Below are positions 1,459 to 21,819 of a stretch of DNA of 64,000 nt, piece by piece. Under the pieces are notes generated by a model. The model did no database searches, was not told the origin of the DNA, and was given only the letters and a program-made list of their open reading frames with translations. The first letter of the stretch is position 1. Every line of letters starts with the position of its first letter. Origin of the DNA: Candidatus Cloacimonadales bacterium (lineage in GTDB: Bacteria; Cloacimonadota; Cloacimonadia; Cloacimonadales; JAFGVF01); contig CAXXJV010000001.1 of NCBI GenBank assembly GCA_963663475.2, forward strand, positions 256,001 to 320,000. Reading direction: 5' to 3'. The translations under genes were made by a program, and so were the position numbers.

Positions 1459-4245
1459 TTACTTTAAAAGTAACATTTTCTTGAATTCTATGTGCTTGCC
1501 TGCTTCCATCTTAGTGTAATATACACCTGAAGCAACTTCCTGATTTCTATTGTCCTTGCCATTCCATAATAAGTTAATTTTCTTATTTGGGGTTGCAACG
1601 AAATCATTAAACATTGTTTTGACTAATTGACCTTTAACATTATATATATTTATTTTAACATTACTTGGGTTAGTAACAGCGAAACTAATGTTAGTTGAAG
1701 GATTAAAGGGATTTGGGTAGTTTTCAAAAAGTTTTGTACCATAAAATACTTCTGGAGTATCATTACCATCTGGATCACCAATACTTACGATTGTAGGTCC
1801 AAACATTTCTGATTCATTAGACAGTTCGACTGTTTTTAACCAATAATAATATACAGTATTGTTTTGGACTTCTCCATCGACAAAACTATATGTATAAGTT
1901 TGTGAAGAATTGATTGAAGGAATCAATACAGGAATTTGATCAGCACTATCAACATCATTCATGGTATTTTTTAAGATATAATAACCTGTTAATGATGTTT
2001 CGGTCTCAACTGTCCATTGAATTTTAACTTGATTGTCAGAAACTAATACAGCATTAAAAGAAGAAAGTTCTACAGGGAGTGTTTGTTCCTCTCCTGTTAA
2101 TGGGAAACCACTGAGTGAAGATTCTGTTTCCACTGTTGTAGTAGAAGTTGTACCAATATAACTTTCTTCAAGAACATCACCACCAATAGTAGCTTCACTA
2201 TTAGCAGTCTCTTTAGTTGTAACTGTAAAGAAGTAATATTTATCATCTGTCGATACTGTAGTATTAAATCCACTAAAGGTTAAAACATCATTATAATTAG
2301 CTGATCCTCCCAACTGGATAGCTTTAGCCTTGCTTGGATCAAATGTTGTAGAGGAGCTTTCCCAAACTTTGAAGCCTGTACTCACTACATCATTTGATGT
2401 TAATGTACCAGTAAGTTTAAGTTTTAGACTTGTTAAAGCTGCTGTACCTTGATTAGTCTTTATATCTAATCTAAAGAAAGGAGCATCTGGACTTCCAGGA
2501 GCAATAGATGGGAAGTTATCAAAATAATTTAATATTAATGCTCGATATAAACATTTATCAGCAAAAACTCCTGGATTAAATGAACTAACTGTTCCTGAAG
2601 TTGTAATCAGAGCATCGTTAGTTGAGATTTCAATTCTGTCTGAATATGTTAAACCTGTAGAATTTAAGGAAACTGCTACAAAGTAATACTTATACTGGTC
2701 TGTAATACTCCTATTATTTATGGAGAAGTTGTAGGTTCCAGTACCTGTGAAAACTATCGGATTAGATATAGATGTCGCGCTTGAGAAGCTAGTTGTACTT
2801 GATTCATAAAGAGCAATATATGCTGCATCATCAGGATCAATAGTACCACTGACAACGATACCAAGATTAGAAAGATTAGCTGTACCAGAAGCTGTTTTCA
2901 AGCCTACATAGCCAATTGGTTGATAGTTACCTAAGTTATAACCTAATAAGGCAACACCTGAATTTATTTCATCTGCCACCGCATCTATGGTAATATTCTG
3001 GTTTAAATATTGGAATGAACCACTGGTTACTGATGTGTTTGTATTGCCAGCGATATCAACCATTTCCACTGAAAATCGATAGAATTCACTGGAATCCAAT
3101 ATATTCAAGCCAGAAACATCAGAGACACTAGCTGAACTAAGTAAATCAGCACCATCTAGGTTAATACTATTACTACCTGAAGAAAACGACCCAATAATAT
3201 CTATAGTTGAGATAACTGCATAAGTATCATTATCTTTGATATAAACAGTTATTCCCCCCGGAGCCGAGTCTTCACCTAAAGTAAAGTTAAGATTAAAACT
3301 AGATCCACTAGCAGAACTACCAGAAACTAAAGTTGGCTTTATGGCAGCATTGTCGTATATTAACTTATTCCATGGGGATGTCTCTTCGGGATTTCCTGTT
3401 TCATCTTGGTAACCAATCGCTAAATAGTATGTATTTAAATGTGTTAATGATGTACTACCTGTTACTGCTTCGATATGGGAAGAAGCTGTTGAAAAATTTG
3501 TTGCATCAAGAGTAATTTGATGCCTTGAAGTATTTTCATATGTACTAGCTAATGTAAGTGTTGTACTTGGAGAAGAACCATCTGAATTTGGTGAAAAGTA
3601 TAGTTTAACACTTCCTCCATTAGGAACTTCAGTAAGTTGAAAATCTATAAGTAAGCTGCTATTATCATAAGTAGCTACTGTAGGAGAGTTTGGACTGTAT
3701 AAAGTTGGCTCTAGTGTTTCCGTATCGTTAAATACTGTAAGATATGTAGAAAATCCAGTATCAGGGTTGCTGGCTGGAAGAATAGTATTATAATATGAAT
3801 CAACTTGGTAACTAGTATAAGATGAAGAATAATTACCTCTACTTGTATAAAGCTGTAAGCCAGCTTGAATTGATACTGCATTACTAGTGAAACTTCCGAT
3901 ATTAAATGTAGATGTCACATCAAAAGTACCATTAGCCGAATTAGAGTCAAAAGGAATATTATAAAAGCTTTCATCTTGCCAAGAACCCTCATCTGGCGTA
4001 GAACTACCATAAAAAATTAGCAAAATATTATTATCATTCCCATCAAAAGAATATCCTTGAATATTCTCCCTGCTTAATCCTGAAACTGTATAGTTTATCT
4101 GTAACGTAATTTCTTCATTTTCAGAAATATCATAATCACCTGCACCATTTTCACCTTGCATTCCAATCGAGTTTATAGTGATAGTCTGAGCAACCACTAT
4201 ATATGCTATAGATATAAAAAACATGGTTAAAATTATTTTTTTCAT
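1459..4245 (-). CDS. Secreted Ser/Thr-rich multi-beta-sandwich surface protein with LPVELSSF Ig module and T9SS/FlgD-like C-terminal domain
   Basis: Signal peptide; two Ig-like repeats ending D..GN; two repeats ending KYYF(V/F); TLPVELSSF module; NYPNPFNPSTNISF...IYNVKGQLVK...WNGKD...SGVYY...KKMLLLK tail. Confidence 0.8.
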   Translation of the reverse strand: MKKIILTMFFISIAYIVVAQTITINSIGMQGENGAGDYDISENEEITLQINYTVSGLSRENIQGYSFDGNDNNILLIFYGSSTPDEGSWQDESFYNIPFDSNSANGTFDVTSTFNIGSFTSNAVSIQAGLQLYTSRGNYSSSYTSYQVDSYYNTILPASNPDTGFSTYLTVFNDTETLEPTLYSPNSPTVATYDNSSLLIDFQLTEVPNGGSVKLYFSPNSDGSSPSTTLTLASTYENTSRHQITLDATNFSTASSHIEAVTGSTSLTHLNTYYLAIGYQDETGNPEETSPWNKLIYDNAAIKPTLVSGSSASGSSFNLNFTLGEDSAPGGITVYIKDNDTYAVISTIDIIGSFSSGSNSINLDGADLLSSASVSDVSGLNILDSSEFYRFSVEMVDIAGNTNTSVTSGSFQYLNQNITIDAVADEINSGVALLGYNLGNYQPIGYVGLKTASGTANLSNLGIVVSGTIDPDDAAYIALYESSTTSFSSATSISNPIVFTGTGTYNFSINNRSITDQYKYYFVAVSLNSTGLTYSDRIEISTNDALITTSGTVSSFNPGVFADKCLYRALILNYFDNFPSIAPGSPDAPFFRLDIKTNQGTAALTSLKLKLTGTLTSNDVVSTGFKVWESSSTTFDPSKAKAIQLGGSANYNDVLTFSGFNTTVSTDDKYYFFTVTTKETANSEATIGGDVLEESYIGTTSTTTVETESSLSGFPLTGEEQTLPVELSSFNAVLVSDNQVKIQWTVETETSLTGYYILKNTMNDVDSADQIPVLIPSINSSQTYTYSFVDGEVQNNTVYYYWLKTVELSNESEMFGPTIVSIGDPDGNDTPEVFYGTKLFENYPNPFNPSTNISFAVTNPSNVKINIYNVKGQLVKTMFNDFVATPNKKINLLWNGKDNRNQEVASGVYYTKMEAGKHIEFKKMLLLK

Positions 4246-13050: not shown

Positions 13051-15387
13051 TCAATCTGAAAAACTCTCAATATTAAACTCAACAGTTACTACTTCTGAAG
13101 GTTGCATGCCTACTCTATATGCTCTTGCTTTTACAGTTGTTGTTTCAGAGATAATAAAAGAACCCATATATTGATTAGAAGCTAAATTTGGAATACTGCC
13201 ATCTAAAGTATAATAGATATCTGACCTGCTAGAACCACTAGTCATCGAGATTGTTTGCTCAGATTCATAGCTTCCTGAATCAGGAGAAATTATTGGAATA
13301 GGGGTTACTTCAAAAAGAGTATTCTTAAGTCGTCTAACAAGGCGAAAACCTAAGTGAGTTAAGGTACTATTATCTTGCGAGGCATTTAAACGACGAGTTA
13401 ACTTACAATCATTAGCATTATTGTGAAAGCCACCTCCACGTAGAATACGGACAAAGCCACTATTTGGACCAAGGGGATCAATCTGCGCTTCAGGACTATA
13501 TTCTGCCACTACATCATAACACCACTCAAAGACATTACCCGCCATATCATAAAGACCTAACTCATTTGGTAATTTTCTACCTATTGAGTGTGTTGAACTC
13601 CCTGAATTATCATCATACCAAGCATAGTCTGATAATTGAGCTTCGTTATCTGTACCTGCCCATTGATTATATCCACTAGCATGACTTTCATTTCCCCCTT
13701 TTGCAGCAAACATCCATTCCATCTCGGTAGGTAAACGATAGCCATTAGCATCAAAATCGCATTGCCAGTTACTTGTATCATAACAAGGAGTTAAGCCTTC
13801 CTCAATACTAATGGCATTACAGTAAGTAACAGCATCCTCCCAAGAAACTTTTTCTACAGGTTTGTTTAAACCAATTGAGTTACTGGGATTTTCTCCCATG
13901 ACAGCTTCATATTCTCCCTGAGTAACTTCATACTTACTCATAATAAAGGAAGAAACAGAGATATCAGCATAACCATTATAGAAGGTTCCGCCTTCTACTA
14001 AAACGAAGTTTTCTGGCATTATTTCAATTTCATATTCAATAGTTATAATTTCTGATGGTTGCCAACCGACTCTATAAGCACGAGCTTTAACTGTTGTTGT
14101 TTCAGAGAGAGTAAAAGGACCAGTATAATGTGTGGACATTGAGCTTGGTTCACTACCATCTAAAGTATAATAGATATCGGATCTACCTGAGTCACTAGTC
14201 ATTGTGATTGTTTGTTCTGTTTCATAGAAACCTGCTTGAGGTGAGACTTGTGGTCTAGGAGTAATTTCAATCTGAGTTTCTTCTATTCGACGAACTATAC
14301 GGAAACCAATGCCATAATTAGAAGCAGAAGGCGGTAAAGGGAAAAAACCTGTAATTTTGGTAGAAAATGCAAGAGCACTAAAAAATCCTCCTTTACAAGC
14401 TCTACCTTGACCAGTCAAAGGACCCACAGGGTCAACTTGTGAATAACCTTCACTATAATCTCCAAAAACATCCCAACACCATTCGTTTATGTTACCAGAC
14501 ATATCATATAAACCAAGAGCATTAGGTAGTTTGAGTCCTACTTGGTGAGCCATACTTTCTGAATTATCTACATACCAAGCATACTGAGTTAACTGTGCTT
14601 CATTATTAGTTCCAGCCCAAGCATCATAGTCCGTAGCATCAGTTTGATCACCACCTTTACCAGCATATAGCCACTCTCTTAAAGTTGGTAAACGATAACC
14701 ACTCGCATTAATATCTAAATTATAGTTTTCATGATTGCTTGTAAGGTTCCACCCCTCAGACCAGTTATCAGGATTAGCTCCTTCATTGTTATAGTCATAA
14801 CATGGCGTAAGTCCTTCTTGCATAGATCGAATGTTACAGTATTTGACAGCATCAAACCAAGAAACAAAATATACTGGATAAGCATTGCCAATAGCAAAAG
14901 TATGAACTGGATTTACACCCATCACAGCTTCATATTCGCCTTGGGTAATCTCGTACTTATCCATAAAAAATGTAGAAATTGTAGTATCATAACCTTCTTC
15001 ATAGAAGACACCTCCATTTACTTTCGTGAATGAAAGAAAATTATCATCATCTTCAAGAGGATTATCACGAGCAATGAGTTTAACTTGAAAGTTATTGCCT
15101 GCTTCAATATTATCAGAGAGGTAGTTCCATACAATTTGCTTTCTTCCACCTGGGATAATGTTGCTTCCAACATGACCAGAAAGAGTTGTTGGATAAATAC
15201 TGAATGTAGAGCCACCATCATCGGAGGCAATCACCATTACCTGACATTGTCCATCAGCATCTAATTGGTAATTGATATAGACATTTACAGAATCAGAGGT
15301 GATACCTATGTTACTTATAGTTGGAACAAGTGAGAAAAGGCAAGTTAATGTTATTACAAAGAGTGTTAATATAGTATATTTTTTCAT
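13051..15387 (-). CDS. Secreted FGE-sulfatase(SUMF1)/CLec-fold repeat protein: N-terminal Ig-like domain + (FGE - Fn3-associated/CHB_HEX_C-like) x2; no CTD
   Basis: Signal peptide; repeated YE(I/V)TQGEY, GYRLPT..EW, PN.LGLYDM.GN..EWC.D, GFR.VR; IYYTLDGS.P...T.VKARAY repeats; no FGE CxxxxC catalytic motif. Confidence 0.85.
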   Translation of the reverse strand: MKKYTILTLFVITLTCLFSLVPTISNIGITSDSVNVYINYQLDADGQCQVMVIASDDGGSTFSIYPTTLSGHVGSNIIPGGRKQIVWNYLSDNIEAGNNFQVKLIARDNPLEDDDNFLSFTKVNGGVFYEEGYDTTISTFFMDKYEITQGEYEAVMGVNPVHTFAIGNAYPVYFVSWFDAVKYCNIRSMQEGLTPCYDYNNEGANPDNWSEGWNLTSNHENYNLDINASGYRLPTLREWLYAGKGGDQTDATDYDAWAGTNNEAQLTQYAWYVDNSESMAHQVGLKLPNALGLYDMSGNINEWCWDVFGDYSEGYSQVDPVGPLTGQGRACKGGFFSALAFSTKITGFFPLPPSASNYGIGFRIVRRIEETQIEITPRPQVSPQAGFYETEQTITMTSDSGRSDIYYTLDGSEPSSMSTHYTGPFTLSETTTVKARAYRVGWQPSEIITIEYEIEIMPENFVLVEGGTFYNGYADISVSSFIMSKYEVTQGEYEAVMGENPSNSIGLNKPVEKVSWEDAVTYCNAISIEEGLTPCYDTSNWQCDFDANGYRLPTEMEWMFAAKGGNESHASGYNQWAGTDNEAQLSDYAWYDDNSGSSTHSIGRKLPNELGLYDMAGNVFEWCYDVVAEYSPEAQIDPLGPNSGFVRILRGGGFHNNANDCKLTRRLNASQDNSTLTHLGFRLVRRLKNTLFEVTPIPIISPDSGSYESEQTISMTSGSSRSDIYYTLDGSIPNLASNQYMGSFIISETTTVKARAYRVGMQPSEVVTVEFNIESFSD

Positions 15388-15395
15388 GCTATCCC

Positions 15396-16112
15396 CTATT
15401 TCAAAAGAAGTACTTTACTGGTTTTGGAATAAGTAGCAGATTTCATTTTGATAAAGTAAATACCATTACTGCATGCTTTTCCATAGTTATCTAAACCATT
15501 CCATTTTATTGTATGGTCTCCTGCTAAAATCTTATTTTTCCTTACTAACTGCCCTTTAAGATTATAAATACTCAAATCACTTACTTCGTTCTCTTTTACT
15601 CTGACACAAATATTTGTTGAATTACTTCCATTAAAAGGATTAGGATATATTGAAACAAGCTCTGTTGAATTAGGAAGAGAAGGAACATCTCCTTCATCAT
15701 CTATTCGGACATTTACTGGTCCATGAAAGTTAGTGCCATTATATTCAATACTTTGTAGCCAATAATAATAATTTGTGTCTAATTCAACCGCATTATCAAT
15801 ATAAGAATAATTATGGGTTAATGAAGTATTATAAGCAGGAATAATTGTTGAGGATATGATATTTGCCAAGTTTAGATCAGCTACTTCCGCTCTATGAATA
15901 TGATAACCTATCATATCTTGTTCAGATTCACTAGTCCATTTAATATCTACAGTTTGGTTAGAAATATTAGGTATCGCCATAAAAGAAGATAGTGTTACAG
16001 GTAAAGTCTCATCACTAATTGAAAAAGTTGGCGAAATAGTAAAACCTGTTAAAGAATACAATAGTCCAGAATTTAACATCACAGAAATCAACATAATCAA
16101 AACTTGTTTCAT
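15396..16112 (-). CDS. 238-aa secreted protein: short N-terminal peptide + LPVTLSSF Ig module + CTD (start moved to ATG 16112)
   Basis: AGGGAG RBS; same length (717 bp) as paralog 20821..21537; IYPNPFN...IYNLKGQLV...WNG.D...NGIYFIKM...SKVLLLK. Confidence 0.85.
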   Translation of the reverse strand: MKQVLIMLISVMLNSGLLYSLTGFTISPTFSISDETLPVTLSSFMAIPNISNQTVDIKWTSESEQDMIGYHIHRAEVADLNLANIISSTIIPAYNTSLTHNYSYIDNAVELDTNYYYWLQSIEYNGTNFHGPVNVRIDDEGDVPSLPNSTELVSIYPNPFNGSNSTNICVRVKENEVSDLSIYNLKGQLVRKNKILAGDHTIKWNGLDNYGKACSNGIYFIKMKSATYSKTSKVLLLK

Positions 16113-16339
16113 TTGTAACTCCCTACTAAAGTTATTTGTATTTAACTTATATTTATAATTTTGCAATTGTTGTCAAGTTCTTATTCTTGATTATGTAATT
16201 ATTTTACCCAGAGACTGCTCAACCACCAATAATAAAGACAGAAGGATTAAAATTATTTATCACATTTCCCACTCTACTTAGGAGAGAACTCTATTTTACT
16301 TCACAAAAATTACAGAGAAAAAACTATATTCTCCTCTCT

Positions 16340-16420
16340 TCATCCATAATCCTTCCTTTACAGTCTTTCGATGAAAGTCCCAGTTTCATCGAAAGACTGT
16401 AAAGGAAGGATTATGGATGA
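16340..16420. repeat. Family-D perfect palindrome (37-bp arms, 7-nt loop)
   Basis: tcatccataatccttcctttacagtctttcgatgaaa-gtcccag-exact reverse complement; second copy at 40777. Confidence 0.9.
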
Positions 16421-16491
16421 TAAGGCTATTGATAAGACCGATGTTCCTTAACCATAGGTAAGGAAGGTCGGGTAAAAAAGGCTCAAGTTCA

Positions 16492-16702
16492 ACCCGAATA
16501 GTGCATTTGAACTTTGATGAGGAGTGCTAGATTCTTTTAGCAAAATAAGTTACAGAATTTTGACGCATATAATTTTTATATTCGGAGAAATTAGGATCTT
16601 ACTTTTGCAGAAGAATATTCTGCTATTCACAAAGGTCTCCTGCATTATTTGGGTTGAAGAAGAATATTCTGCTATTCACAAAGGTCTCCTGCATTATTGG
16701 GT
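16492..16702 (+). mobile_element. Family-A fold-back MITE with duplicated right end
   Basis: acccgaat...gggt (16492-16654), then ~48-bp repeat of the right end finishing at the TTA stop of the 1369-aa gene; follows a truncated family-B end ggctcaagttca (16480-16491). Confidence 0.85.
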
Positions 16703-19700
16703 TTAATCCATATTTGAGCGAACCAAACGAATCCCTATCTTAGGAAGTAAGTAATGAGGAAATCCTGAATAACGTCTAGTAATAACCATATTATATGGTG
16801 GTGAATTCCAATCTCCTCCTCTATATACCCTTTTTGGCCCATAGTCAGGTCCAATCGGATTAACCGCAGTTTCGTCAGCAAAGTTTTCATAATAATTCGT
16901 TTGATACCTGTCATAACACCATTCACCTACATTACCAGACATATCATAAAGACCTAACTGATTAGCAGCTTTTAAGCCTGATGGGTGGCTTGACTCATTA
17001 CTATTATCAGAATACCAGGCTATATAATCGACTTCGTTTGAGCCAGAGTAAAGGTAATTAGGTGTCATAGAAGCACCTCTCGCAGCATATTCCCATTCTG
17101 CTTCAGTGGGTAATCTATAGCCATTAGCTGTAAAGTCACATGAGTAATCTGTTAAATCATAGCAAGGAGTAAGTTCTTCAGCAATACTTTTAGCGTTACA
17201 GTAACTAAGTGCTTCTTGCCAAGTAATGTTATCAAGTGGTAAGGAAAAATCATGGTGAGATGATGGGTCAACTTGCATGACTTGATAATAGTCAGCCAAA
17301 GATACTTCAAATTTACTTATATAAAAGGAGTTTAATTGAACTTCATGAGTAGGTTCTTCATCAATTAATCCTCCATAAGGAGCTCCCATTGTGAAGCTCC
17401 CTGAAGGGACATAAACAAAGTCTTGATTTTCAGCAAAATTATATTCATAAGTTAATATTTCAGAGGCTAAAAAGCTATATTCAAAAGCTCTTGCTTTCAC
17501 ACTAGTATCAACAGAGATATAGAAGGGGTCAGTATAGAGGAAAGAATCTCTATCAGGTTCGCTGCCATCGATTGTGAAATAGATCTCAGCATTTTCGTGT
17601 TCACTAGACATAGTAATAGTCTGAACTGAATCATAGTCTCCTCCTAGAGGGCTAATAATCGGATTAGGAGTTGTTTCAGGAATAACAAAAGCTAACGATC
17701 TAGCTAGACGGAAGCCAACATTGTTTATTCTATTAGAAGGTAAAGTAGCTTGGCGATGTAGAACTGTACAATAAGAGACACCTGTATTCCATGCTCCACC
17801 TCTAGTTATTCTATCTTCACCTGTTTCTGCTCCCCATGGATTTAACTGAGGTCCAGGAGGATAATCCCCATAGATATCCCAGGTCCACTCATAAACATTA
17901 CCAGACATATCATACAGGCCTAAAGCATTAGGTTCTAAGAGGCCTACTGGTTTTGTTCCATTAGGAGTATTATTAAAGCTATTCCAACAACCTCCACTTA
18001 TATTATCATAACCCCAAGTAGGAGTTTGATTTCCCCCCTTTGCAGCATACATCCACTCCATTTCAGTTGGAAGCCTATATCCATTAGCTATAAAATCACA
18101 GTTAACATTTTCGTGATTTATTGCAGAGTTCCAACCTGTTGGCCAGTTATCAGGATTAACTCCACTATCACCAACACTATAACAAGGAGTAAGGCCATCT
18201 TGAATAGAACGAATATTGCAAAATTTAATTGCATCAAACCAAGATACCATATAGACAGGAAAATCTGGGTCTATTCCATAAGATTGAACAATTTCAGAAG
18301 GATTATTTCCCATTACTGCTTCATATTCACCTTGAGTAATTTCATATCTATTGATAAAGAAGTTACTAATTGTAATATCTGATGTCCCATTATAAAAACT
18401 TCCACCTTCTATAGATACAAAGTCATTCACAAGTAATTCAATTTCGTAGTCAGCAGAAACTATTTCTGAATATTTTAATCCTTCTTTATAGGCTCTAGCT
18501 TTAACACTTGTAGTTTCGTAAATAGTAAAAGGCTGGTCATAGTGTTCAGACCCCATATTTGGGTCGCTACCATCAAGAGTGTAGTAAATTTCTATATCAG
18601 GGTATTGACTGGATAAAGTTATAGTTTTTGGTATTCTATAGGAATCAGCATCTGGAGAAATATCGGGAGAATCAGTAGGAGAAAGATGAGTGTATCCAAG
18701 CTTTCTAACTGTTCTAAAGCCAATTGAGAAATTACTAGCATCAGGAGTTTCTTGATTCCTAATCATTAACTTAGTATTTGCTGCTGAGTTCAACCAAGAA
18801 CCACCACGATATATACGGTTAATTGCTATTGAACCACCCTGAGGATCTTCTTGAGCCTCACTAGTATAATCTGCATGCTTATCCCAACACCATTCTGCAA
18901 CATTACCTGCCATATCATAAAGTCCTAATTGATTTGGTGTTTTACTTCCTACCGAATGGGTTTGTCCTGAAGCATTAGAATTATACCAGGCATAGTTTCC
19001 TACTTGGGAACTTTCATTAGTACCTGGCCAATCATTAAAATCTACTGGAGGACTAGCAAGTCCACCTTTAGCAGCAAACATCCACTCCATCTCAGTTGGC
19101 AAACGATAACCATTAGCAGCAAAGTTACAGCGATAACGAGATTCATTATTCACTAGATCCCAACCTTGAGACCAGTTATTAGGGTCTGTTCCTTCTCGAT
19201 TATAATCATAACAAGGCTCTAAACCTCTTTCTATAGACTTCAAATTGCAATACTTAACAGCTTCAAACCAACTTACCTGGTCCACAGGTTTATCATCTCC
19301 AGCAAAACTACTCGGATTTGCTCCCATAAGACTTGTATAGTCTGCCTGATTAACTTCGTACTTATTTATATAGAAGGGAGTAATAGCTACATCACCACTT
19401 CCATTGAAAAAACTTCCCCCTTCAAGATAAACAAAGTCAGCTTCAATAACTTCTATTTCTATGTCACTAGTTACAATTTCAGACTGTTTCCAGCCTTGTT
19501 TATAAGCTCTTGCCTTAATTGTTGTAGTTTCAGATATTTCAAAAGGACTGGTATATTTTGTAGAAGTTAGGTCTGGATCTGAACCATCTAAAGTATAGTA
19601 AATTTCAGGTCTTCCCTGTCCCCCATAAAAAGAAATAGTTTGAGCTTGATAATAAAGACCACTAGCAGGACTAATACTTGGATTTGCTACTGCCTGCAAA

Positions 19701-20812
19701 GGAGTAGATTCAATCCCACGAGCTAATCTAAAAGATAGGAAAGGATATTCATTTGATAAACTATAGTAGAATCTATTCGAGACAGAACAGTTTTCTGAAG
19801 AACTACCAAAATCTCCTCCTCTAGCTGTCTTAAAACCACCATTACTTGGTCCTGTAGGATTATCCTGAGCAATATTAGGATAGATTTCTTGCCAAAAGTC
19901 CTGACACCATTCAATTGCATTTCCACTCATATCATAAAGGCCAAGCTCATTTGCTTCTTTTTGTCCTACATCTTTAGTTCCATAGTTGCTATCGGTATTA
20001 TTCTCCTCATACCAAGCATAATCTGATAACTCACCTTGATTATTGGTTCCTGCCCATTGGTTATAGTTGTGAGGACTATTATGATTTCCTCCTTTAGCAG
20101 CAAACATCCATTCCATCTCGGTTGGAAGTCGATAACCATTAGCTTGATAGTCACAATCTAACAAAGAATAATTATTGATTTCAGCTGGCCAATTATCTGG
20201 ATCAGACCCATAAGCACCATACGCGTAACAGGGGGTTAAATCTTCCATTAGAGACCTTGTGTTACAGTATTTAATAGTATCTAACCATTTAACTAAAATT
20301 ACAGGTTTTGTCTCACCTATGAAATCTTGACTCGGATTATAACCCATTACAGCTTCAAATTCACTCTGAGTCATTTCATACTTATCAATAAAGAAGTCAC
20401 TTAGACTTATATCAGCTCTTCCGTTATGAAAAAATCCTCCCTCAACCTTTGTAAAAGAAAGAAAATTATTCTCATCATCAAGCGGGTTATCTCGGGCTAT
20501 TATCTTTATCTGAAAATTATCTCCTGCCTGAATATTATCAGCTGCATAGTTCCAAACAATTTGCTTTCTACCTCCAGGAGACACATTAGCACCTATTGAA
20601 CCTGACAGGTTTCTAGGATATATTTTAAAAGAATTACCCCCATCATTAGAGGCAACAATTGAAACATGACAAGAATTAGCAGAACTTAAACTATAATTAA
20701 TATATACATTTACAGAATCAGAACTTATACCTATTCGTGAAACTTCTGGTACTGTTGAAAAGAGCAGGCTAAAACTTAAAAAAAAGAGGCTTATAATAAA
20801 ATATTTCTTCAT
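16703..20812 (-). CDS. Secreted FGE-sulfatase(SUMF1)/CLec-fold repeat protein: N-terminal Ig-like domain + 4 FGE domains separated by 3 Fn3-associated/CHB_HEX_C-like domains; no CTD
   Basis: Four ANGYRLPTE.EW / N.LGLYDM.GN..EW / RGG...GFR units; three IY(Y/F)T(L/I)DGS.P units; paralog of 13051..15387. Confidence 0.85.
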   Translation of the reverse strand: MKKYFIISLFFLSFSLLFSTVPEVSRIGISSDSVNVYINYSLSSANSCHVSIVASNDGGNSFKIYPRNLSGSIGANVSPGGRKQIVWNYAADNIQAGDNFQIKIIARDNPLDDENNFLSFTKVEGGFFHNGRADISLSDFFIDKYEMTQSEFEAVMGYNPSQDFIGETKPVILVKWLDTIKYCNTRSLMEDLTPCYAYGAYGSDPDNWPAEINNYSLLDCDYQANGYRLPTEMEWMFAAKGGNHNSPHNYNQWAGTNNQGELSDYAWYEENNTDSNYGTKDVGQKEANELGLYDMSGNAIEWCQDFWQEIYPNIAQDNPTGPSNGGFKTARGGDFGSSSENCSVSNRFYYSLSNEYPFLSFRLARGIESTPLQAVANPSISPASGLYYQAQTISFYGGQGRPEIYYTLDGSDPDLTSTKYTSPFEISETTTIKARAYKQGWKQSEIVTSDIEIEVIEADFVYLEGGSFFNGSGDVAITPFYINKYEVNQADYTSLMGANPSSFAGDDKPVDQVSWFEAVKYCNLKSIERGLEPCYDYNREGTDPNNWSQGWDLVNNESRYRCNFAANGYRLPTEMEWMFAAKGGLASPPVDFNDWPGTNESSQVGNYAWYNSNASGQTHSVGSKTPNQLGLYDMAGNVAEWCWDKHADYTSEAQEDPQGGSIAINRIYRGGSWLNSAANTKLMIRNQETPDASNFSIGFRTVRKLGYTHLSPTDSPDISPDADSYRIPKTITLSSQYPDIEIYYTLDGSDPNMGSEHYDQPFTIYETTSVKARAYKEGLKYSEIVSADYEIELLVNDFVSIEGGSFYNGTSDITISNFFINRYEITQGEYEAVMGNNPSEIVQSYGIDPDFPVYMVSWFDAIKFCNIRSIQDGLTPCYSVGDSGVNPDNWPTGWNSAINHENVNCDFIANGYRLPTEMEWMYAAKGGNQTPTWGYDNISGGCWNSFNNTPNGTKPVGLLEPNALGLYDMSGNVYEWTWDIYGDYPPGPQLNPWGAETGEDRITRGGAWNTGVSYCTVLHRQATLPSNRINNVGFRLARSLAFVIPETTPNPIISPLGGDYDSVQTITMSSEHENAEIYFTIDGSEPDRDSFLYTDPFYISVDTSVKARAFEYSFLASEILTYEYNFAENQDFVYVPSGSFTMGAPYGGLIDEEPTHEVQLNSFYISKFEVSLADYYQVMQVDPSSHHDFSLPLDNITWQEALSYCNAKSIAEELTPCYDLTDYSCDFTANGYRLPTEAEWEYAARGASMTPNYLYSGSNEVDYIAWYSDNSNESSHPSGLKAANQLGLYDMSGNVGEWCYDRYQTNYYENFADETAVNPIGPDYGPKRVYRGGDWNSPPYNMVITRRYSGFPHYLLPKIGIRLVRSNMD

Positions 20813-20820
20813 TTTCTCTC

Positions 20821-21537
20821 CTATTTTAAGAGCAATATCTTGCTAATTTTACTATATGTTGGAGACTTCATTTTAATGAAATAAACCCCATTACTACACT
20901 TTCTACCTGCATCATCATAACCATTCCAGTCTAGCCTATGATTCCCAGAATTAATTGTTCTTTTCTGAACTACCTGTCCCTTTAGATTATAAATAGTTAG
21001 AGTACTTGTTTCATTTTCCTTCACCTTTACTTCAATATTTGCAGAAATATTAGCATGGAATGGATTAGGATAAATGGAAACTAATTCTGTACTTTCAGGT
21101 AGAGGACTTACGTCTTGGTCATTTTCTATCTTTACGCTTATAGGTCCAAAGAAATTACTCCCACTATAATCAACACTTTGTAACCAGTAATAATAATTAA
21201 TTTCTGTCTCTAGCTCAAAATCCTGATACATATAATCATTAGATAAGGCAGAGTTTTGACCAGGAATTATTGAAGGTGTTATTATAATAGCTTGGGAAAG
21301 ACTAGGTTCTTGCCCTCGATGAAGGTGATAACCAATTAAATTCATCTCTGATTCACTTGTCCAATTGATAGTAATACTTTGATTATCAGAATTTGCCATT
21401 GCATAAAAAGCAGACAAGGTAACTGGAAGTGTTTCATCAGTTATTGAAAATATAGGTGAAAGAGAAAAGCCTGTAAAAGCATTTACTAATGTAAAATTTA
21501 CAATTAATATAGCTAAAATAATTAAAATCTTCTTCAT
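20821..21537 (-). CDS. 238-aa secreted protein: short N-terminal peptide + LPVTLSAF Ig module + CTD
   Basis: Signal peptide, FTGFSLSPIFSITDETLPVTLSAF, YYYWLQSV, IYPNPF...IYNLKGQVV...SKILLLK. Confidence 0.85.
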   Translation of the reverse strand: MKKILIILAILIVNFTLVNAFTGFSLSPIFSITDETLPVTLSAFYAMANSDNQSITINWTSESEMNLIGYHLHRGQEPSLSQAIIITPSIIPGQNSALSNDYMYQDFELETEINYYYWLQSVDYSGSNFFGPISVKIENDQDVSPLPESTELVSIYPNPFHANISANIEVKVKENETSTLTIYNLKGQVVQKRTINSGNHRLDWNGYDDAGRKCSNGVYFIKMKSPTYSKISKILLLK

Positions 21538-21655: not shown

Positions 21656-21819
21656 ACTCAGATAGTGTAGTAGAGCTTTAGTGAAGAGTGCATATTATTC
21701 TAGAAAAATAGCTTACAGAATTTTGACACATATATTTTATATATTCGGAGAAATTATGGATCTTGCTTTTGAAGAAGAATATTCTGCTATTCACAAAGGC
21801 CTTCTGCATTGTTTTGGGA
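21656..21819 (+). mobile_element. Family-A fold-back MITE, full length
   Basis: TTA|actcagat...ttttggga|TTA; aligns with other copies. Confidence 0.85.

What the first reader, a model, noticed from the sequence alone, without database searches (positions are those of the whole stretch)
13051..21537. Duplicated two-gene 'tag/catcher' cassette: CTD anchor with a lone beta-strand paired with a CTD-less FGE/CLec cargo whose Ig domain appears to lack its last strand
Seen: two tandem cassettes, each with a 238-aa gene 8 bp upstream of a large FGE-repeat gene. After its signal peptide the small protein has only ~14 residues (FTGFSLSPIFSITD at 21436-21477; LTGFTISPTFSISD at 16011-16052) before the same TLPV(T/E)LS.F Ig module + CTD that ends the ordinary 928-aa surface protein. 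Its passenger is therefore reduced to a conserved peptide. The large proteins have a signal peptide but no CTD, lipobox or TM anchor. They start with a conserved ~90-aa beta domain (VS.IGI.S / NVYINY.L / V.(I/V)(V/I)AS.DGG / KQIVWN / FQ(I/V)K(I/L)IARD) that runs straight into a short acidic linker and the FGE domain. Inference: this is an Ig/Fn3 sandwich missing its G strand, and the G.(F)..SP.FSI.D peptide supplies that strand in trans. That would be donor-strand complementation, as known from chaperone-usher pili, used here to piggy-back CTD-less adhesins onto a CTD-secreted anchor. I know of no description of such a split system.
Basis: partly seen in the sequence, partly recalled or inferred. 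Interest (0 to 1): 0.9.

Follow-up and report, generated by a model that had tools for sequence, protein, structure and literature searches.

The report
Split-domain anchor-cargo surface protein pairs
Two neighbouring gene pairs in a Cloacimonadota genome seem to encode a small secreted anchor whose free N-terminal peptide completes an unfinished domain on a large binding protein that has no anchor of its own, a pilus-like trick for hanging variable binding proteins on the cell surface.

Summary
There are two tandem cassettes on the minus strand. Each has a 238-aa protein (signal peptide, 15-residue peptide, Fn3-like module, T9SS CTD) 8 bp upstream of a CTD-less protein with FGE/C-type-lectin-fold repeats and a ~90-aa N-terminal Fn3-like domain ("N-dom").

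The split-domain reading survives every test I could run.
- Pairing was strict in both directions: 12 of 12 closest N-dom loci, and 11 of 11 peptide-bearing anchors against 0 of 19 other Fn3+CTD proteins.
- In single-chain tandem arrays, N-dom carries a further 17-18 residues after its last strand. These hold the motif GES..F.V.N, which is the consensus of the anchor peptide. The cargo lacks this segment.
- Two natural fusions in relatives place the peptide directly after N-dom.
- AlphaFold2 leaves the peptide disordered on the anchor alone.
- Complex prediction gave only weak support (0.46 against controls at 0.00).

Relatives have two further partner types without a CTD, some with 2-4 tandem tags. 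In two relatives the cargo is a DGR variable protein.

Binding, the strand geometry and joint export through the T9SS are untested. I rate it a new variant of donor-strand complementation.

The parts
20821..21537 (-). small1, anchor gene 1 (238 aa plus stop): signal peptide, tag peptide, Fn3-like module, T9SS type A CTD
   Evidence: Pfam PF18962 39.1 bits and TIGR04183 45.6 bits. AlphaFold2 model with mean pLDDT 85.
21478..21537 (-). small1 signal peptide (residues 1-20, MKKILIILAILIVNFTLVNA)
   Evidence: Read from the sequence: KK, a hydrophobic core, then VNA. The cleavage site is inferred, not predicted by a tool.
21433..21477 (-). small1 tag peptide (residues 21-35, FTGFSLSPIFSITDE), the proposed donor G strand
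   Evidence: Conserved in the family: G23 invariant; T22, F24, F30 and I32 in at least 90% of 31 sequences. pLDDT below 50 and coil in the monomer model. Motif comparison with the cis G segments.
21127..21432 (-). small1 Fn3-like module (residues 36-137, starts TLPVTLSAF)
   Evidence: Confident beta domain, model residues 20-116. The same module precedes the CTD in 17 larger proteins of the genome.
20824..21075 (-). small1 T9SS C-terminal sorting domain (residues 155-238)
   Evidence: PF18962 matches residues 155-235. TIGR04183 also matches.
16703..20812 (-). big1, cargo gene 1 (1369 aa): signal peptide, N-dom, 4 FGE/C-type-lectin-fold domains alternating with 3 CHB_HEX_C domains; no CTD, no lipobox
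   Evidence: AlphaFold2 of residues 1-370. Fold search.
20480..20755 (-). big1 N-dom (residues 20-111): Fn3-like domain with strands A to F and no G strand, the proposed acceptor
   Evidence: DSSP strands at 23-31, 35-43, 48-55, 69-71, 74-77, 80-88 and 101-108, then pLDDT below 50 at 110-117. No Pfam family. Fn3/Ig structural matches at Z 6-7.2. Cis homologues carry 17-18 more residues.
16706..20479 (-). big1 payload (residues 112-1369): FGE-type C-type-lectin-fold repeats and CHB_HEX_C domains
   Evidence: PF03781 514.5 bits in 4 stretches and PF13290 in 3 stretches. The first FGE domain matches T. denticola TvpA (2y3c_A) at Z 26.6, rmsd 2.9, 242 aligned residues, 34% identity.
15396..16112 (-). 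small2, anchor gene 2 (238 aa from the ATG at 16112), 57% identical to small1
   Evidence: PF18962 36.1 bits and TIGR04183 46.6 bits.
16008..16052 (-). small2 tag peptide (residues 21-35, LTGFTISPTFSISDE)
13051..15387 (-). big2, cargo gene 2 (778 aa): signal peptide, N-dom, 2 FGE domains and 2 CHB_HEX_C domains; no CTD
   Evidence: 50% identical to big1 over 797 residues.
15055..15330 (-). big2 N-dom (residues 20-111)
   Evidence: 64-65% identical to the big1 N-dom.
21694..21817 (.). Upstream non-coding stretch duplicated with the cassette (copy upstream of small1)
   Evidence: Repeat families D8 and D10, 87-90% identical to 16531-16653.
16531..16702 (.). Upstream non-coding stretch duplicated with the cassette (copy between big1 and small2). 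It contains a further 60-nt tandem copy.
   Evidence: Repeat families D8 and D10. Very high depth in metagenome contigs, so part of it is a multi-copy element.

Best explanation
Each cassette encodes a two-subunit surface protein held together by strand complementation of a split Fn3-like domain.

**Proposed mechanism**
1. Both proteins are exported by Sec.
2. The large cargo starts with an Fn3-like domain (N-dom) that has strands A to F but no seventh (G) strand. Its payload is a set of FGE-type C-type-lectin-fold binding domains related to DGR variable proteins.
3. After signal-peptide cleavage, the small anchor starts with a free ~15-residue peptide with family consensus LTGFGESPxFEISD. The peptide inserts next to strand F of N-dom and completes the sandwich. 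This is what the N-terminal extension of a chaperone-usher pilin does.
4. The anchor's own Fn3 module acts as a spacer. Its type A CTD takes the anchor through the T9SS, where the CTD is expected to be removed and the anchor fixed to the cell surface.
5. The joint links the N-terminal ends of both chains. The complex is therefore a linear pseudo-chain (CTD, Fn3, tag::N-dom, payload) that could pass the translocon one domain at a time.

**What is shown and what is inferred**
- Shown: the gene anatomy, the family memberships, the strict pairing, the missing segment, the disordered tag, and the fusions in relatives.
- Inferred: binding, the strand geometry, joint export and surface display.
For: **1. 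Pairing, starting from N-dom.** Of the 30 loci fetched from 61 related genomes, the 12 with the closest N-doms all have a tag+CTD gene 3-14 bp upstream (L001-L009, L011, L023, L030; two are the window's own).

**2. Pairing, starting from the anchor.** I took the 30 best loci for small1 in 232 genomes of the phylum. Eleven are small proteins with signal peptide, tag, Fn3 and CTD, and 11 of 11 have an N-dom gene 8-11 bp downstream. Among the other 19 (Fn3+CTD on larger proteins, or no tag) the count is 0 of 19.

**3. The missing segment.**
- Among 149 proteins from a search of 1.84 billion representatives, N-dom occurs in tandem arrays with a period of about 107 aa.
- 118 of 156 tandem junctions have 17-18 residues between the projected end of strand F and the next domain.
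- The segment is kept after the last domain of an array, before unrelated domains or linkers. N-terminal N-doms that follow a signal peptide have nothing in front of them. So the segment belongs to the preceding domain.
- In cargo-type proteins strand F is followed by 6-12 residues and then the FGE start.

**4. Motif.** G[ED][ST]..F.[VIL].[DN] is the consensus of the tag. It occurs 18 times in the 132,101 residues of the representative set. Seventeen of these start 3-8 residues (mostly 7) after a projected strand-F end. It occurs 3 times in 1.58 million residues of the genome's own six-frame ORFs. A PSSM of the tag has its best hit at +3/+4 after strand F in 46 of 127 array units. In all, 49 best hits fall in the window 0-8 after strand F, where 11.4 would be expected by chance.

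**5. Natural fusions in relatives.**
- L031: N-dom, 8 residues, SGLVTLDTV, then a Kre9-like Ig domain. It aligns with type II partners from their tag onward (E 2e-21 and 2e-22).
- L033: N-dom, 8 residues, SGQVEIDAV, then the partner body. It aligns with a type III partner from its second tag onward (57% identity, E 6e-110).

**6. The tag is a free module.**
- It is disordered in the AlphaFold2 model of the mature anchor: residues 1-16 have pLDDT below 50 and are coil, while Fn3 and CTD score 84-95.
- It is absent before the same Fn3 module in 17 other proteins of the genome.
- It is triplicated in L007, fused straight to the CTD without Fn3 in L023, and present in 2-4 tandem copies in type III partners.

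**7. Complex prediction** (N-dom 20-114 with anchor 21-145, my own alignments).
- Median ipSAE 0.46 (runs 0.46, 0.61, 0.43). Best of 3 controls 0.00. Verdict: weak support.
- The mark was reached by 58 of 80 solved complexes and 2 of 110 mismatched pairs. At 0.60 or under it was reached by only 7 of those 80 solved complexes and by both mismatches that passed.
- The runs share at least 71% of their contacts. Partner pLDDT is at least 72.

**8. The T9SS is present in the genome.** SprA scores 487 bits and PorU 571.6 bits, both over their cut-offs.
Against: - The complex score falls in the class that the tool calls more often wrong than right unless the prior was high. No contacts were returned, so nothing shows that the peptide lies beside strand F.
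- Formal sequence tests of 'tag = G strand' failed. An 18-residue HMM of cis G segments did not retrieve the anchors among 11,705 frames of the genome. hhalign of tag+Fn3 against F+G+next unit gave probability 0.08. The PSSM scores are low, at most 3.5 bits, with secondary peaks on other strands.
- The window's own two tags (SLSPIF, TISPTF) depart from the GES consensus.
- The two fusions belong to partner types II and III, not to the CTD type. Two searches for longer fused forms of the CTD type found nothing.
- Types II and III have no CTD, so complementation cannot be for the T9SS as such.
- I found no precedent for export of a non-covalent complex by the T9SS.
- PorV reached only 139.6 bits against a cut-off of 250.
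- Evidence of expression is thin. There are short contigs from one RNA library on all four genes, none bridges a gene junction, and DNA carry-over is not excluded.
Confidence: 0.6

Rival explanations
1. The two genes are operon partners but are not joined by strand complementation. The anchor is an independent small T9SS surface protein. Its conserved N-terminal peptide serves some other purpose, such as a processing or recognition signal or a linker. The cargo acts in the periplasm or leaves by another route. The pairing reflects shared regulation or a different contact, for example Fn3 with an FGE domain.
For: The complex prediction is only weak and gave no contacts. The HMM and hhalign tests of peptide against G segment were not significant. 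FGE-fold proteins such as PorK/GldK are periplasmic T9SS parts, and the cargo model matches PorKN at Z 20.3.
Against: This does not explain four observations.
- The peptide motif matches the segment that follows strand F in cis arrays.
- Fusions place the peptide right after N-dom.
- Three unrelated partner bodies share only the tag.
- The tag occurs in tandem copies without any domain between them.

The controls in the complex prediction scored 0.00.
Confidence: 0.17
2. The tag does complement N-dom, but only transiently. The anchor would be a periplasmic escort or chaperone that keeps the incomplete domain soluble and hands the cargo on, as a pilus chaperone does. Alternatively the complex stays in the periplasm or at the outer membrane. 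Cargo and anchor would not be exported together.
For: Partner types II and III have no CTD. I found no report of T9SS export of complexes. In chaperone-usher systems an incomplete Ig fold needs a temporary donor (established knowledge).
Against: A CTD on a 238-aa protein whose only other parts are a tag and a spacer makes sense if something is to be carried or displayed. Relatives of the cargo are DGR variable proteins, whose known members bind ligands outside the cell (the role is established knowledge of DGR targets). The genome has no second donor and no polymerising subunit: N-dom occurs only twice.
Confidence: 0.15
3. N-dom is a complete, stable six-stranded variant of the fold, and the peptide is simply the first strand or cap of the domain that follows it in the partner. 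The resemblance to a split domain is coincidental.
For: In some type II partners the peptide recurs before each Kre9-like Ig domain (L019, L024, L025, L029). In L031 it also sits just before such a domain. N-dom is predicted with pLDDT 80-91 without a partner.
Against: - The anchor model leaves the peptide unpaired.
- The same Fn3 module in 17 other proteins has no such peptide.
- L007 has three copies with no domain between them, and L023 has the peptide without Fn3.
- Pfam's Kre9_KNH and Big_7 matches start after the peptide (weak E-values).
- In arrays the segment stays with the last domain.
Confidence: 0.06

Closest known systems
Chaperone-usher pili: donor-strand complementation and exchange
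   Same: An Ig-like fold that lacks its seventh (G) strand is completed by a short N-terminal extension of another secreted subunit. Both subunits are exported by Sec and meet in the periplasm. (Established knowledge; recent summaries seen only as search listings.)
   Different: The genome has no PapD-like chaperone and no usher. There is no polymer: the donor protein has a complete Fn3 of its own and the acceptor has no extension, so the product is a heterodimer, or a few cargoes on a multi-tag partner. The outer-membrane step would be the T9SS.
WxL (Elr) pilus of Enterococcus faecalis, and haloarchaeal Tat-fimbriae
   Same: These are recent cases of donor-strand assembly outside the classical systems. 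[quoted passage not shown] N-dom looks the same, with payloads of 1-4 FGE domains, CHB_HEX_C and others. (Abstracts and outlines read.)
   Different: The folds differ (WxL, Taf) and so do the phyla. Those systems are filaments with a dedicated chaperone and sortase or cell-wall anchoring. There is no T9SS and no CTD.
T9SS type A CTD cargo proteins (Bacteroidota, FCB group)
   Same: The anchors are ordinary members: a Sec signal peptide, a C-terminal PF18962/TIGR04183 domain, and SprA and PorU in the genome.
   Different: The passenger is reduced to a 15-residue peptide plus a spacer domain. The functional protein is encoded separately and has no CTD. My searches found no description of such a split.
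DGR variable proteins with an FGE-type C-type-lectin fold (Treponema denticola TvpA)
   Same: The first FGE domain of the cargo matches TvpA best: 2y3c_A, Z 26.6, rmsd 2.9, 242 aligned residues, 34% identity. In two relatives the N-dom cargo gene is followed by bAvd and a reverse transcriptase, with a TR/VR pair whose mismatches are mostly A in the template copy.
   Different: TvpA is a lipoprotein (recalled). The window's cargoes have no lipobox. I found no template repeat for them near the genome's two 343-aa reverse transcriptase genes.
Tat 'hitchhiker' co-export and cohesin-dockerin scaffolds
   Same: A subunit without a targeting signal rides on a partner that has one (Tat hitchhiker; abstract of PMC4273604 seen in the listing). 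Variable payloads dock on a scaffold through a standard module (cellulosomes; established knowledge).
   Different: The membrane and machinery differ. Docking here would be by completion of a fold, not by two folded domains.

Membership tests
T9SS type A CTD cargo (small1, small2) | C-terminal sorting domain matching PF18962 / TIGR04183 above the curated cut-off | tested here: met
   PF18962 at 39.1 and 36.1 bits (cut-off 27). TIGR04183 at 45.6 and 46.6 bits (cut-off 23).
T9SS type A CTD cargo (small1, small2) | N-terminal Sec signal peptide | tested here: inconclusive
   Read from the sequence only: KK, a hydrophobic stretch, then VNA or LYS before the conserved peptide. No signal-peptide predictor was available.
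T9SS type A CTD cargo (small1, small2) | T9SS machinery encoded in the same genome | tested here: met
   SprA (TIGR04189) at 487 bits and PorU (NF033707) at 571.6 bits, both over their cut-offs. The PorV-like match scored 139.6 bits, below the cut-off of 250.
T9SS type A CTD cargo (big1, big2) | C-terminal sorting domain | tested here: not met
   No CTD family among the Pfam or NCBIfam matches. The proteins end in an FGE domain (big1) or a CHB_HEX_C domain (big2).
FGE-sulfatase / C-type-lectin-fold superfamily (big1, big2 payload) | PF03781 match above the cut-off, and the fold | tested here: met
   514.5 and 240.2 bits (cut-off 23.3). Model against TvpA Z 26.6, CarF Z 23.0, PorKN Z 20.3, PvdO Z 20.0.
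Formylglycine-generating enzyme proper | Catalytic cysteine pair and copper site | not tested
   By eye, the stretch after RGG(S/G)(W/F) differs in all six domains and holds at most one Cys. No alignment to a solved FGE was made.
DGR variable protein | Variable repeat at the 3' end matching a template repeat with A-specific mismatches, beside a reverse transcriptase and Avd | tested here: not met
   For the window's genes, BLASTN of 7 kb around each of the two 343-aa reverse transcriptase genes hit the cassette region only at the intergenic palindrome (2 of 1605 hits). The feature is met for cargo homologues in G113 and G014: bAvd at 65.6 and 66.7 bits, RVT_1, and 18 of 22 and 19 of 25 mismatches being A in the template copy.
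Chaperone-usher donor-strand systems | Acceptor Ig-like fold lacking the C-terminal G strand | tested here: inconclusive
   Supported by comparison with cis arrays and by the strand order of the model. No coordinates were available to show an open groove.
Chaperone-usher donor-strand systems | Donor strand at the mature N-terminus of a subunit | tested here: inconclusive
   A conserved peptide lies directly after the signal peptide and is unpaired in the monomer model. Its insertion into N-dom is not shown. The complex score was 0.46 against controls at 0.00, weak support.
Chaperone-usher donor-strand systems | PapD-like periplasmic chaperone and outer-membrane usher | tested here: not met
   PF00345 and PF00577 gave 0 matches in the genome, which is 99.2% complete. 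Both control searches found E. coli.
Fibronectin type III-like domain (N-dom) | Match to an Fn3 or Ig family by sequence or fold | tested here: inconclusive
   No Pfam family at E up to 1. Structural matches to Fn3/Ig domains reach only Z 6-7.2 with 75-93 aligned residues, which is within the common background. NCBI names two array homologues 'fibronectin type III domain-containing protein'.

The most novel reading that the evidence does not exclude
Cloacimonadota have a general docking system based on completing a fold.

- The 'catcher' is a strand-less Fn3-like domain at the head of many variable payloads. These include DGR-diversified C-type-lectin-fold binders, CHB_HEX_C domains and Fib_succ-type domains.
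- The 'tag' is a ~15-residue peptide at the mature N-terminus of at least three unrelated scaffold types: a T9SS CTD anchor, a Kre9-like Ig protein with a basic C-terminal helix, and a ~1100-aa protein.
- Some scaffolds carry 2-4 tags and so bind several cargoes.

This would be a cohesin-dockerin-like surface assembly built by donor-strand complementation. In the CTD type it would be the first case of a non-covalent complex carried through the T9SS.
Probability: 0.35. Interest if true: 0.9.

Novelty: new variant of a known kind. Interest (0 to 1): 0.8.

Why it matters
If true, it matters in four ways.
- It extends donor-strand complementation from pilus polymers to a heterodimeric way of loading proteins onto an anchor.
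- It shows how proteins without a CTD can depend on the T9SS. That would change how T9SS secretomes are predicted from CTDs alone.
- It explains how anchor-less DGR-type variable binding proteins of an uncultured phylum reach and stay on the cell surface.
- A natural tag of about 15 residues paired with a catcher of about 90 residues, non-covalent and able to complete a fold, would interest protein engineers.

The hypothesis can be tested directly with two small recombinant pieces.

Tried and rejected
**Sequence tests that did not reach significance**
- An 18-residue HMM of cis G segments (91 segments from 25 proteins, and a P0113-only version) was searched against 11,705 six-frame ORFs of the genome. 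The anchors were not among the hits, and the best E-values were 0.16-0.5 on unrelated frames. The model is too short to be informative.
- hhalign of the anchor family (tag+Fn3) against natural F+G+next-unit segments gave probability 0.08.

**Searches that found nothing or failed**
- Search for longer, fused forms of the CTD-type anchor, using residues 18-62 of P0002 and 9-50 of P0028 with lengths 'longer'. Nothing was found. The tool itself calls this weak evidence.
- Cross-phylum survey with the search for related loci. The N-dom alignment A2 had no stretch conserved enough. The narrower alignment A7 got no answer from the machine, twice. Distribution outside Cloacimonadota is therefore untested for the pairs.
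- PDB sequence search with the array protein P0125 gave only one chance-level hit, E 0.79.

**Ideas dropped**
- A two-domain AlphaFold2 model of the fusion L031. MAFFT kept aligning the partner's Ig domain onto N-dom, so no usable alignment could be made.
- DGR targeting of the window's own cargo. No template repeat was found near the two 343-aa reverse transcriptase genes.
- A simple gene split by frameshift. The CTD gene lies upstream of the cargo gene, both have their own signal peptides, and the arrangement is conserved in 16 genomes.

**RNA evidence**
- Contigs of one RNA library lie on all four genes, but none bridges a gene junction. Parts without cover say nothing.

Full report
**What is in the window**

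On the minus strand there are two tandem cassettes.
- Cassette 1 is small1 (20821-21537, 238 aa) followed after 8 bp by big1 (16703-20812, 1369 aa).
- Cassette 2 is small2 (15396-16112 from its ATG, 238 aa) followed after 8 bp by big2 (13051-15387, 778 aa).

The small proteins are 57% identical to each other. The large ones are 50% identical over 797 residues. About 120-170 bp of upstream non-coding DNA is duplicated with each cassette, so the whole unit was duplicated.

Names that the sources give to homologues place the organism in Cloacimonadota.

**Anatomy of the anchor**

Each small protein has four parts: a signal peptide, a 15-residue peptide (FTGFSLSPIFSITDE or LTGFTISPTFSISDE), an Fn3-like module that starts TLPVTLS(A/S)F, and a type A T9SS sorting domain.
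- The CTD matches PF18962 at 39.1 and 36.1 bits and TIGR04183 at 45.6 and 46.6 bits, all above the cut-offs.
- The same Fn3+CTD module ends 17 larger proteins of the genome, including the 928-aa protein at 1459-4245. In those proteins it is preceded by unrelated sequence.
- Of 108 database relatives I aligned 29 with near-full coverage, plus the two window copies. The peptide is among the best-conserved parts, with consensus SLTGFGESPxFEISDxTLPVTLSSF. G23 is invariant, and T22, F24, F30 and I32 are present in at least 90%.
- An AlphaFold2 model of the mature anchor has mean pLDDT 85.1. Fn3 (residues 20-116) and CTD (131-216) are confident. Residues 1-16, the peptide, have pLDDT below 50 and no secondary structure. 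The peptide is therefore not predicted to dock on its own protein.

**Anatomy of the cargo**

Each large protein has a signal peptide without a Cys, a ~90-residue N-terminal domain (N-dom), and then FGE-sulfatase domains (4 and 2) alternating with CHB_HEX_C domains (3 and 2). There is no CTD.
- N-dom has no Pfam family and occurs only twice in the genome.
- In an AlphaFold2 model of big1 residues 1-370 (mean pLDDT 76.5), N-dom shows strands at 23-31, 35-43, 48-55, 69-71/74-77, 80-88 and 101-108. Residues 110-117 then fall below pLDDT 50, and the FGE domain starts at 120.
- I read these as strands A, B, C, C', E and F of an Fn3-like sandwich with nothing after F.
- VIA-align matches residues 19-113 to Fn3/Ig domains at Z 6-7.2. 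This is within the common background and says only that the fold is of that kind.
- The FGE domain matches the DGR variable protein TvpA of Treponema denticola best (2y3c_A, Z 26.6, rmsd 2.9, 242 aligned residues, 34% identity). CarF, PorKN and PvdO follow.

**Are the two genes a pair?**

I started first from N-dom. A search of 61 related genomes found N-dom in 29. Among the 30 loci returned:
- The 12 with the closest N-doms (L001-L009, L011, L023, L030, two of them the window's own) all have a tag+CTD gene 3-14 bp upstream.
- Fourteen have a different upstream partner, type II.
- One has a third kind, type III.
- Three show none.

I then started from the anchor and took the 30 best loci for small1 among 232 genomes of the phylum. 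Eleven are small proteins with signal peptide, tag, Fn3 and CTD, and all 11 have an N-dom gene 8-11 bp downstream. None of the 19 loci where Fn3+CTD ends a larger protein or lacks the tag has one.

Together the CTD-type pair is seen in 16 genomes of four families. A second pair in G002 is inferred only from coordinates. These genomes are kin, so I give counts and no test.

**Is N-dom incomplete?**

A search of 1.84 billion representatives with N-dom gave 537 proteins at E up to 0.001. I analysed the best 150.
- An HMM of the cargo N-doms finds 416 domains in 149 of them. Many lie in tandem arrays, for example 28 stretches in the 3618-aa protein P0113.
- The array period is about 107 residues.
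- Between the projected end of strand F (V+I.A.D) and the start of the next domain lie 17-18 residues in 118 of 156 junctions.
- These read G.G.G.PGES..FAVSNN(T)LPVVS in P0113-like proteins, and SFGNQG....SS.NF.LDT..P in others.
- The segment is kept after the last domain of an array, where an unrelated Fn3, another domain or a low-complexity linker follows. N-terminal N-doms directly after a signal peptide have nothing in front. So the segment belongs to the preceding domain. In an Fn3 it is the FG loop plus strand G.
- Cargo-type proteins (dozens, and all loci) go from strand F through 6-12 residues straight into the first strand of the FGE domain.
- The array proteins carry names from other phyla (Rifleibacterium, Uhrbacteria, Wallbacteria). 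Two are called fibronectin type III domain-containing.

**Is the tag that missing strand?**

The family consensus GESPxFEISD(E)TLPV is nearly the same as array segments such as GESPVFAVSNNTLPE.

In favour:
- The motif G[ED][ST]..F.[VIL].[DN] occurs 18 times in the representative set. Seventeen of these start 3-8 residues (mostly 7) after a projected strand-F end. It occurs three times in 1.58 million residues of the genome's six-frame ORFs.
- A PSSM of the tag has its best hit at +3/+4 after strand F in 46 of 127 array units. In all, 49 best hits fall in the window 0-8 after strand F, where 11.4 would be expected.

Against:
- The PSSM scores are low and have secondary peaks on other strands.
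- The short HMM and hhalign tests were not significant.
- Only 6 of 24 distinct tags fit the strict motif by my count. The window's own two tags do not.

**Fusions and other partners**

Type II partners are about 255 aa. They have a signal peptide, a similar peptide (LTGFGVSAPLLNDTVNP, SELFILDTVVP), a Kre9-like Ig domain, an Fn3 domain and a basic C-terminal helix. They overlap the cargo gene by 4 nt and have no CTD.

Type III partners are about 1100 aa. After the signal peptide they start with 2-4 tandem copies of the motif. In G036, two copies precede two cargo genes.

Two relatives carry single-chain versions.
- L031 has N-dom, 8 residues, SGLVTLDTV and then a Kre9-like Ig domain. It aligns with type II partners from their peptide onward (E 2e-21 and 2e-22).
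- L033 has N-dom, 8 residues, SGQVEIDAV and then the type III body. It is 57% identical to a type III partner from its second peptide onward (E 6e-110).

Among the CTD-type anchors, L007 has three tandem tags with no domain between them, and L023 has the tag fused to the CTD without Fn3.

So the tag is a free-standing module. It is shared by three unrelated scaffolds, and in fusions it sits where strand G belongs.

**Predicted complex**

ESMFold2 was run on N-dom (residues 20-114, 23-row alignment) with the anchor (residues 21-145, 31-row alignment).
- ipSAE was 0.46, 0.61 and 0.43 in three runs, median 0.46. The best of three controls scored 0.00. The tool's verdict is weak support.
- The mark was reached by 58 of 80 solved complexes and 2 of 110 mismatched pairs. 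At 0.60 or under it was reached by only 7 of those 80 solved complexes and by both mismatches that passed.
- The runs share at least 71% of their contacts, and partner pLDDT is at least 72.
- No contacts were given.

**Context for the mechanism**

- The genome encodes SprA (487 bits) and PorU (571.6 bits), both over their cut-offs, and a PorV-like protein below its cut-off.
- It has no PapD-like chaperone and no usher.
- In G113 and G014 the N-dom cargo gene is followed by bAvd (65.6 and 66.7 bits) and a reverse transcriptase. There is a 114-nt and a 144-nt repeat pair, in which 18 of 22 and 19 of 25 mismatches are A in one copy. In G113 the other copy ends the cargo ORF. The cargo family therefore includes true DGR variable proteins.
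- For the window's own genes I found no template repeat.
- Short contigs of one metatranscriptome library, with 0-2 mismatches, lie on all four genes. None bridges a junction, and DNA carry-over cannot be excluded.

**Verdict**

The anatomy is real and conserved. The best explanation is a split Fn3-like domain: the anchor's N-terminal peptide supplies the missing G strand of the cargo's N-dom. This ties an anchor-less, TvpA-like binding protein to a T9SS-sorted anchor.

My rough odds:
- About 0.7 that the two proteins bind through the tag and N-dom.
- About 0.6 that the binding is G-strand complementation.
- About 0.45 that the complex is exported or displayed through the T9SS.

**Literature**

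My searches found donor-strand systems only in pili and fimbriae. These include type V pili, the WxL/Elr pilus and Tat-fimbriae. They found no T9SS co-export of proteins without a CTD.
- I read abstracts and outlines for the Elr and tafi papers.
- I read passages of PMC11285876, PMC9251779 and PMC8144416.
- The other papers I saw only as listings.
- Supplementary files were not consulted.

Noticed in passing
Loci L012, L013, L015, L017-L022, L024, L025, L028, L029, L038 (relatives): A second partner family lies upstream of N-dom genes. It has a signal peptide, a tag-like peptide, a Kre9-like Ig domain, an Fn3 domain and a conserved C-terminal helix of the form (L/I)xWxE(I/L)+ ending in a basic GG(x)K tail. 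It has no CTD and usually overlaps the cargo gene by 4 nt. The tail may be an undescribed sorting or anchoring signal.
   Followed up: partly
L071-L073 with L034, L037, L027, L076 (relatives): A third partner type of about 1100 aa starts with 2-4 tandem tag motifs and ends ...FY.V.S(I/V)(G/A)(Y/F). In G036, two tags precede two tandem cargo genes. In G106 and G113, about 3-4 tags precede one cargo gene.
   Followed up: partly
L075/L079 (G113) and L077/L078 (G014): N-dom/FGE cargo genes there are DGR targets. bAvd and a reverse transcriptase lie directly downstream, with TR/VR pairs of 114 and 144 nt whose mismatches are mostly adenines in the template copy.
   Followed up: yes
window 16340-16420: A perfect 37-nt inverted repeat with a 7-nt loop lies in the spacer between the cassettes. 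The same element occurs near a reverse transcriptase gene at about 195.6 kb on contig C1. The neighbouring 16486-16702 stretch has 20-100 times the depth of the flanks in metagenome contigs, so it is a multi-copy element.
   Followed up: partly
genome C1:196728-197357 and C1:2659208-2659837 (outside the window): Two 343-aa reverse transcriptase genes lie in a 1970-bp duplication that is 99.9% identical. Two 421-aa reverse transcriptases and a broken one are also present. Whether the 343-aa ones are DGR enzymes with targets elsewhere was not examined.
   Followed up: no
window 13051-20812, the six FGE domains: By eye, the stretch between RGG(S/G)(W/F) and GFR near the end of each FGE domain differs strongly among the six paralogous domains. 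DGRs diversify this site in TvpA-like proteins. No alignment statistics were made.
   Followed up: no
L016, L026 (relatives); P0207, P0245, P0200: N-dom also heads payloads other than FGE domains. One example is a D.DGN.Y.TV.IG.Q.WM.ENL domain, which I recall as the Fibrobacter succinogenes paralogous family type. In L016 and L026 no upstream partner was seen within the locus.
   Followed up: no
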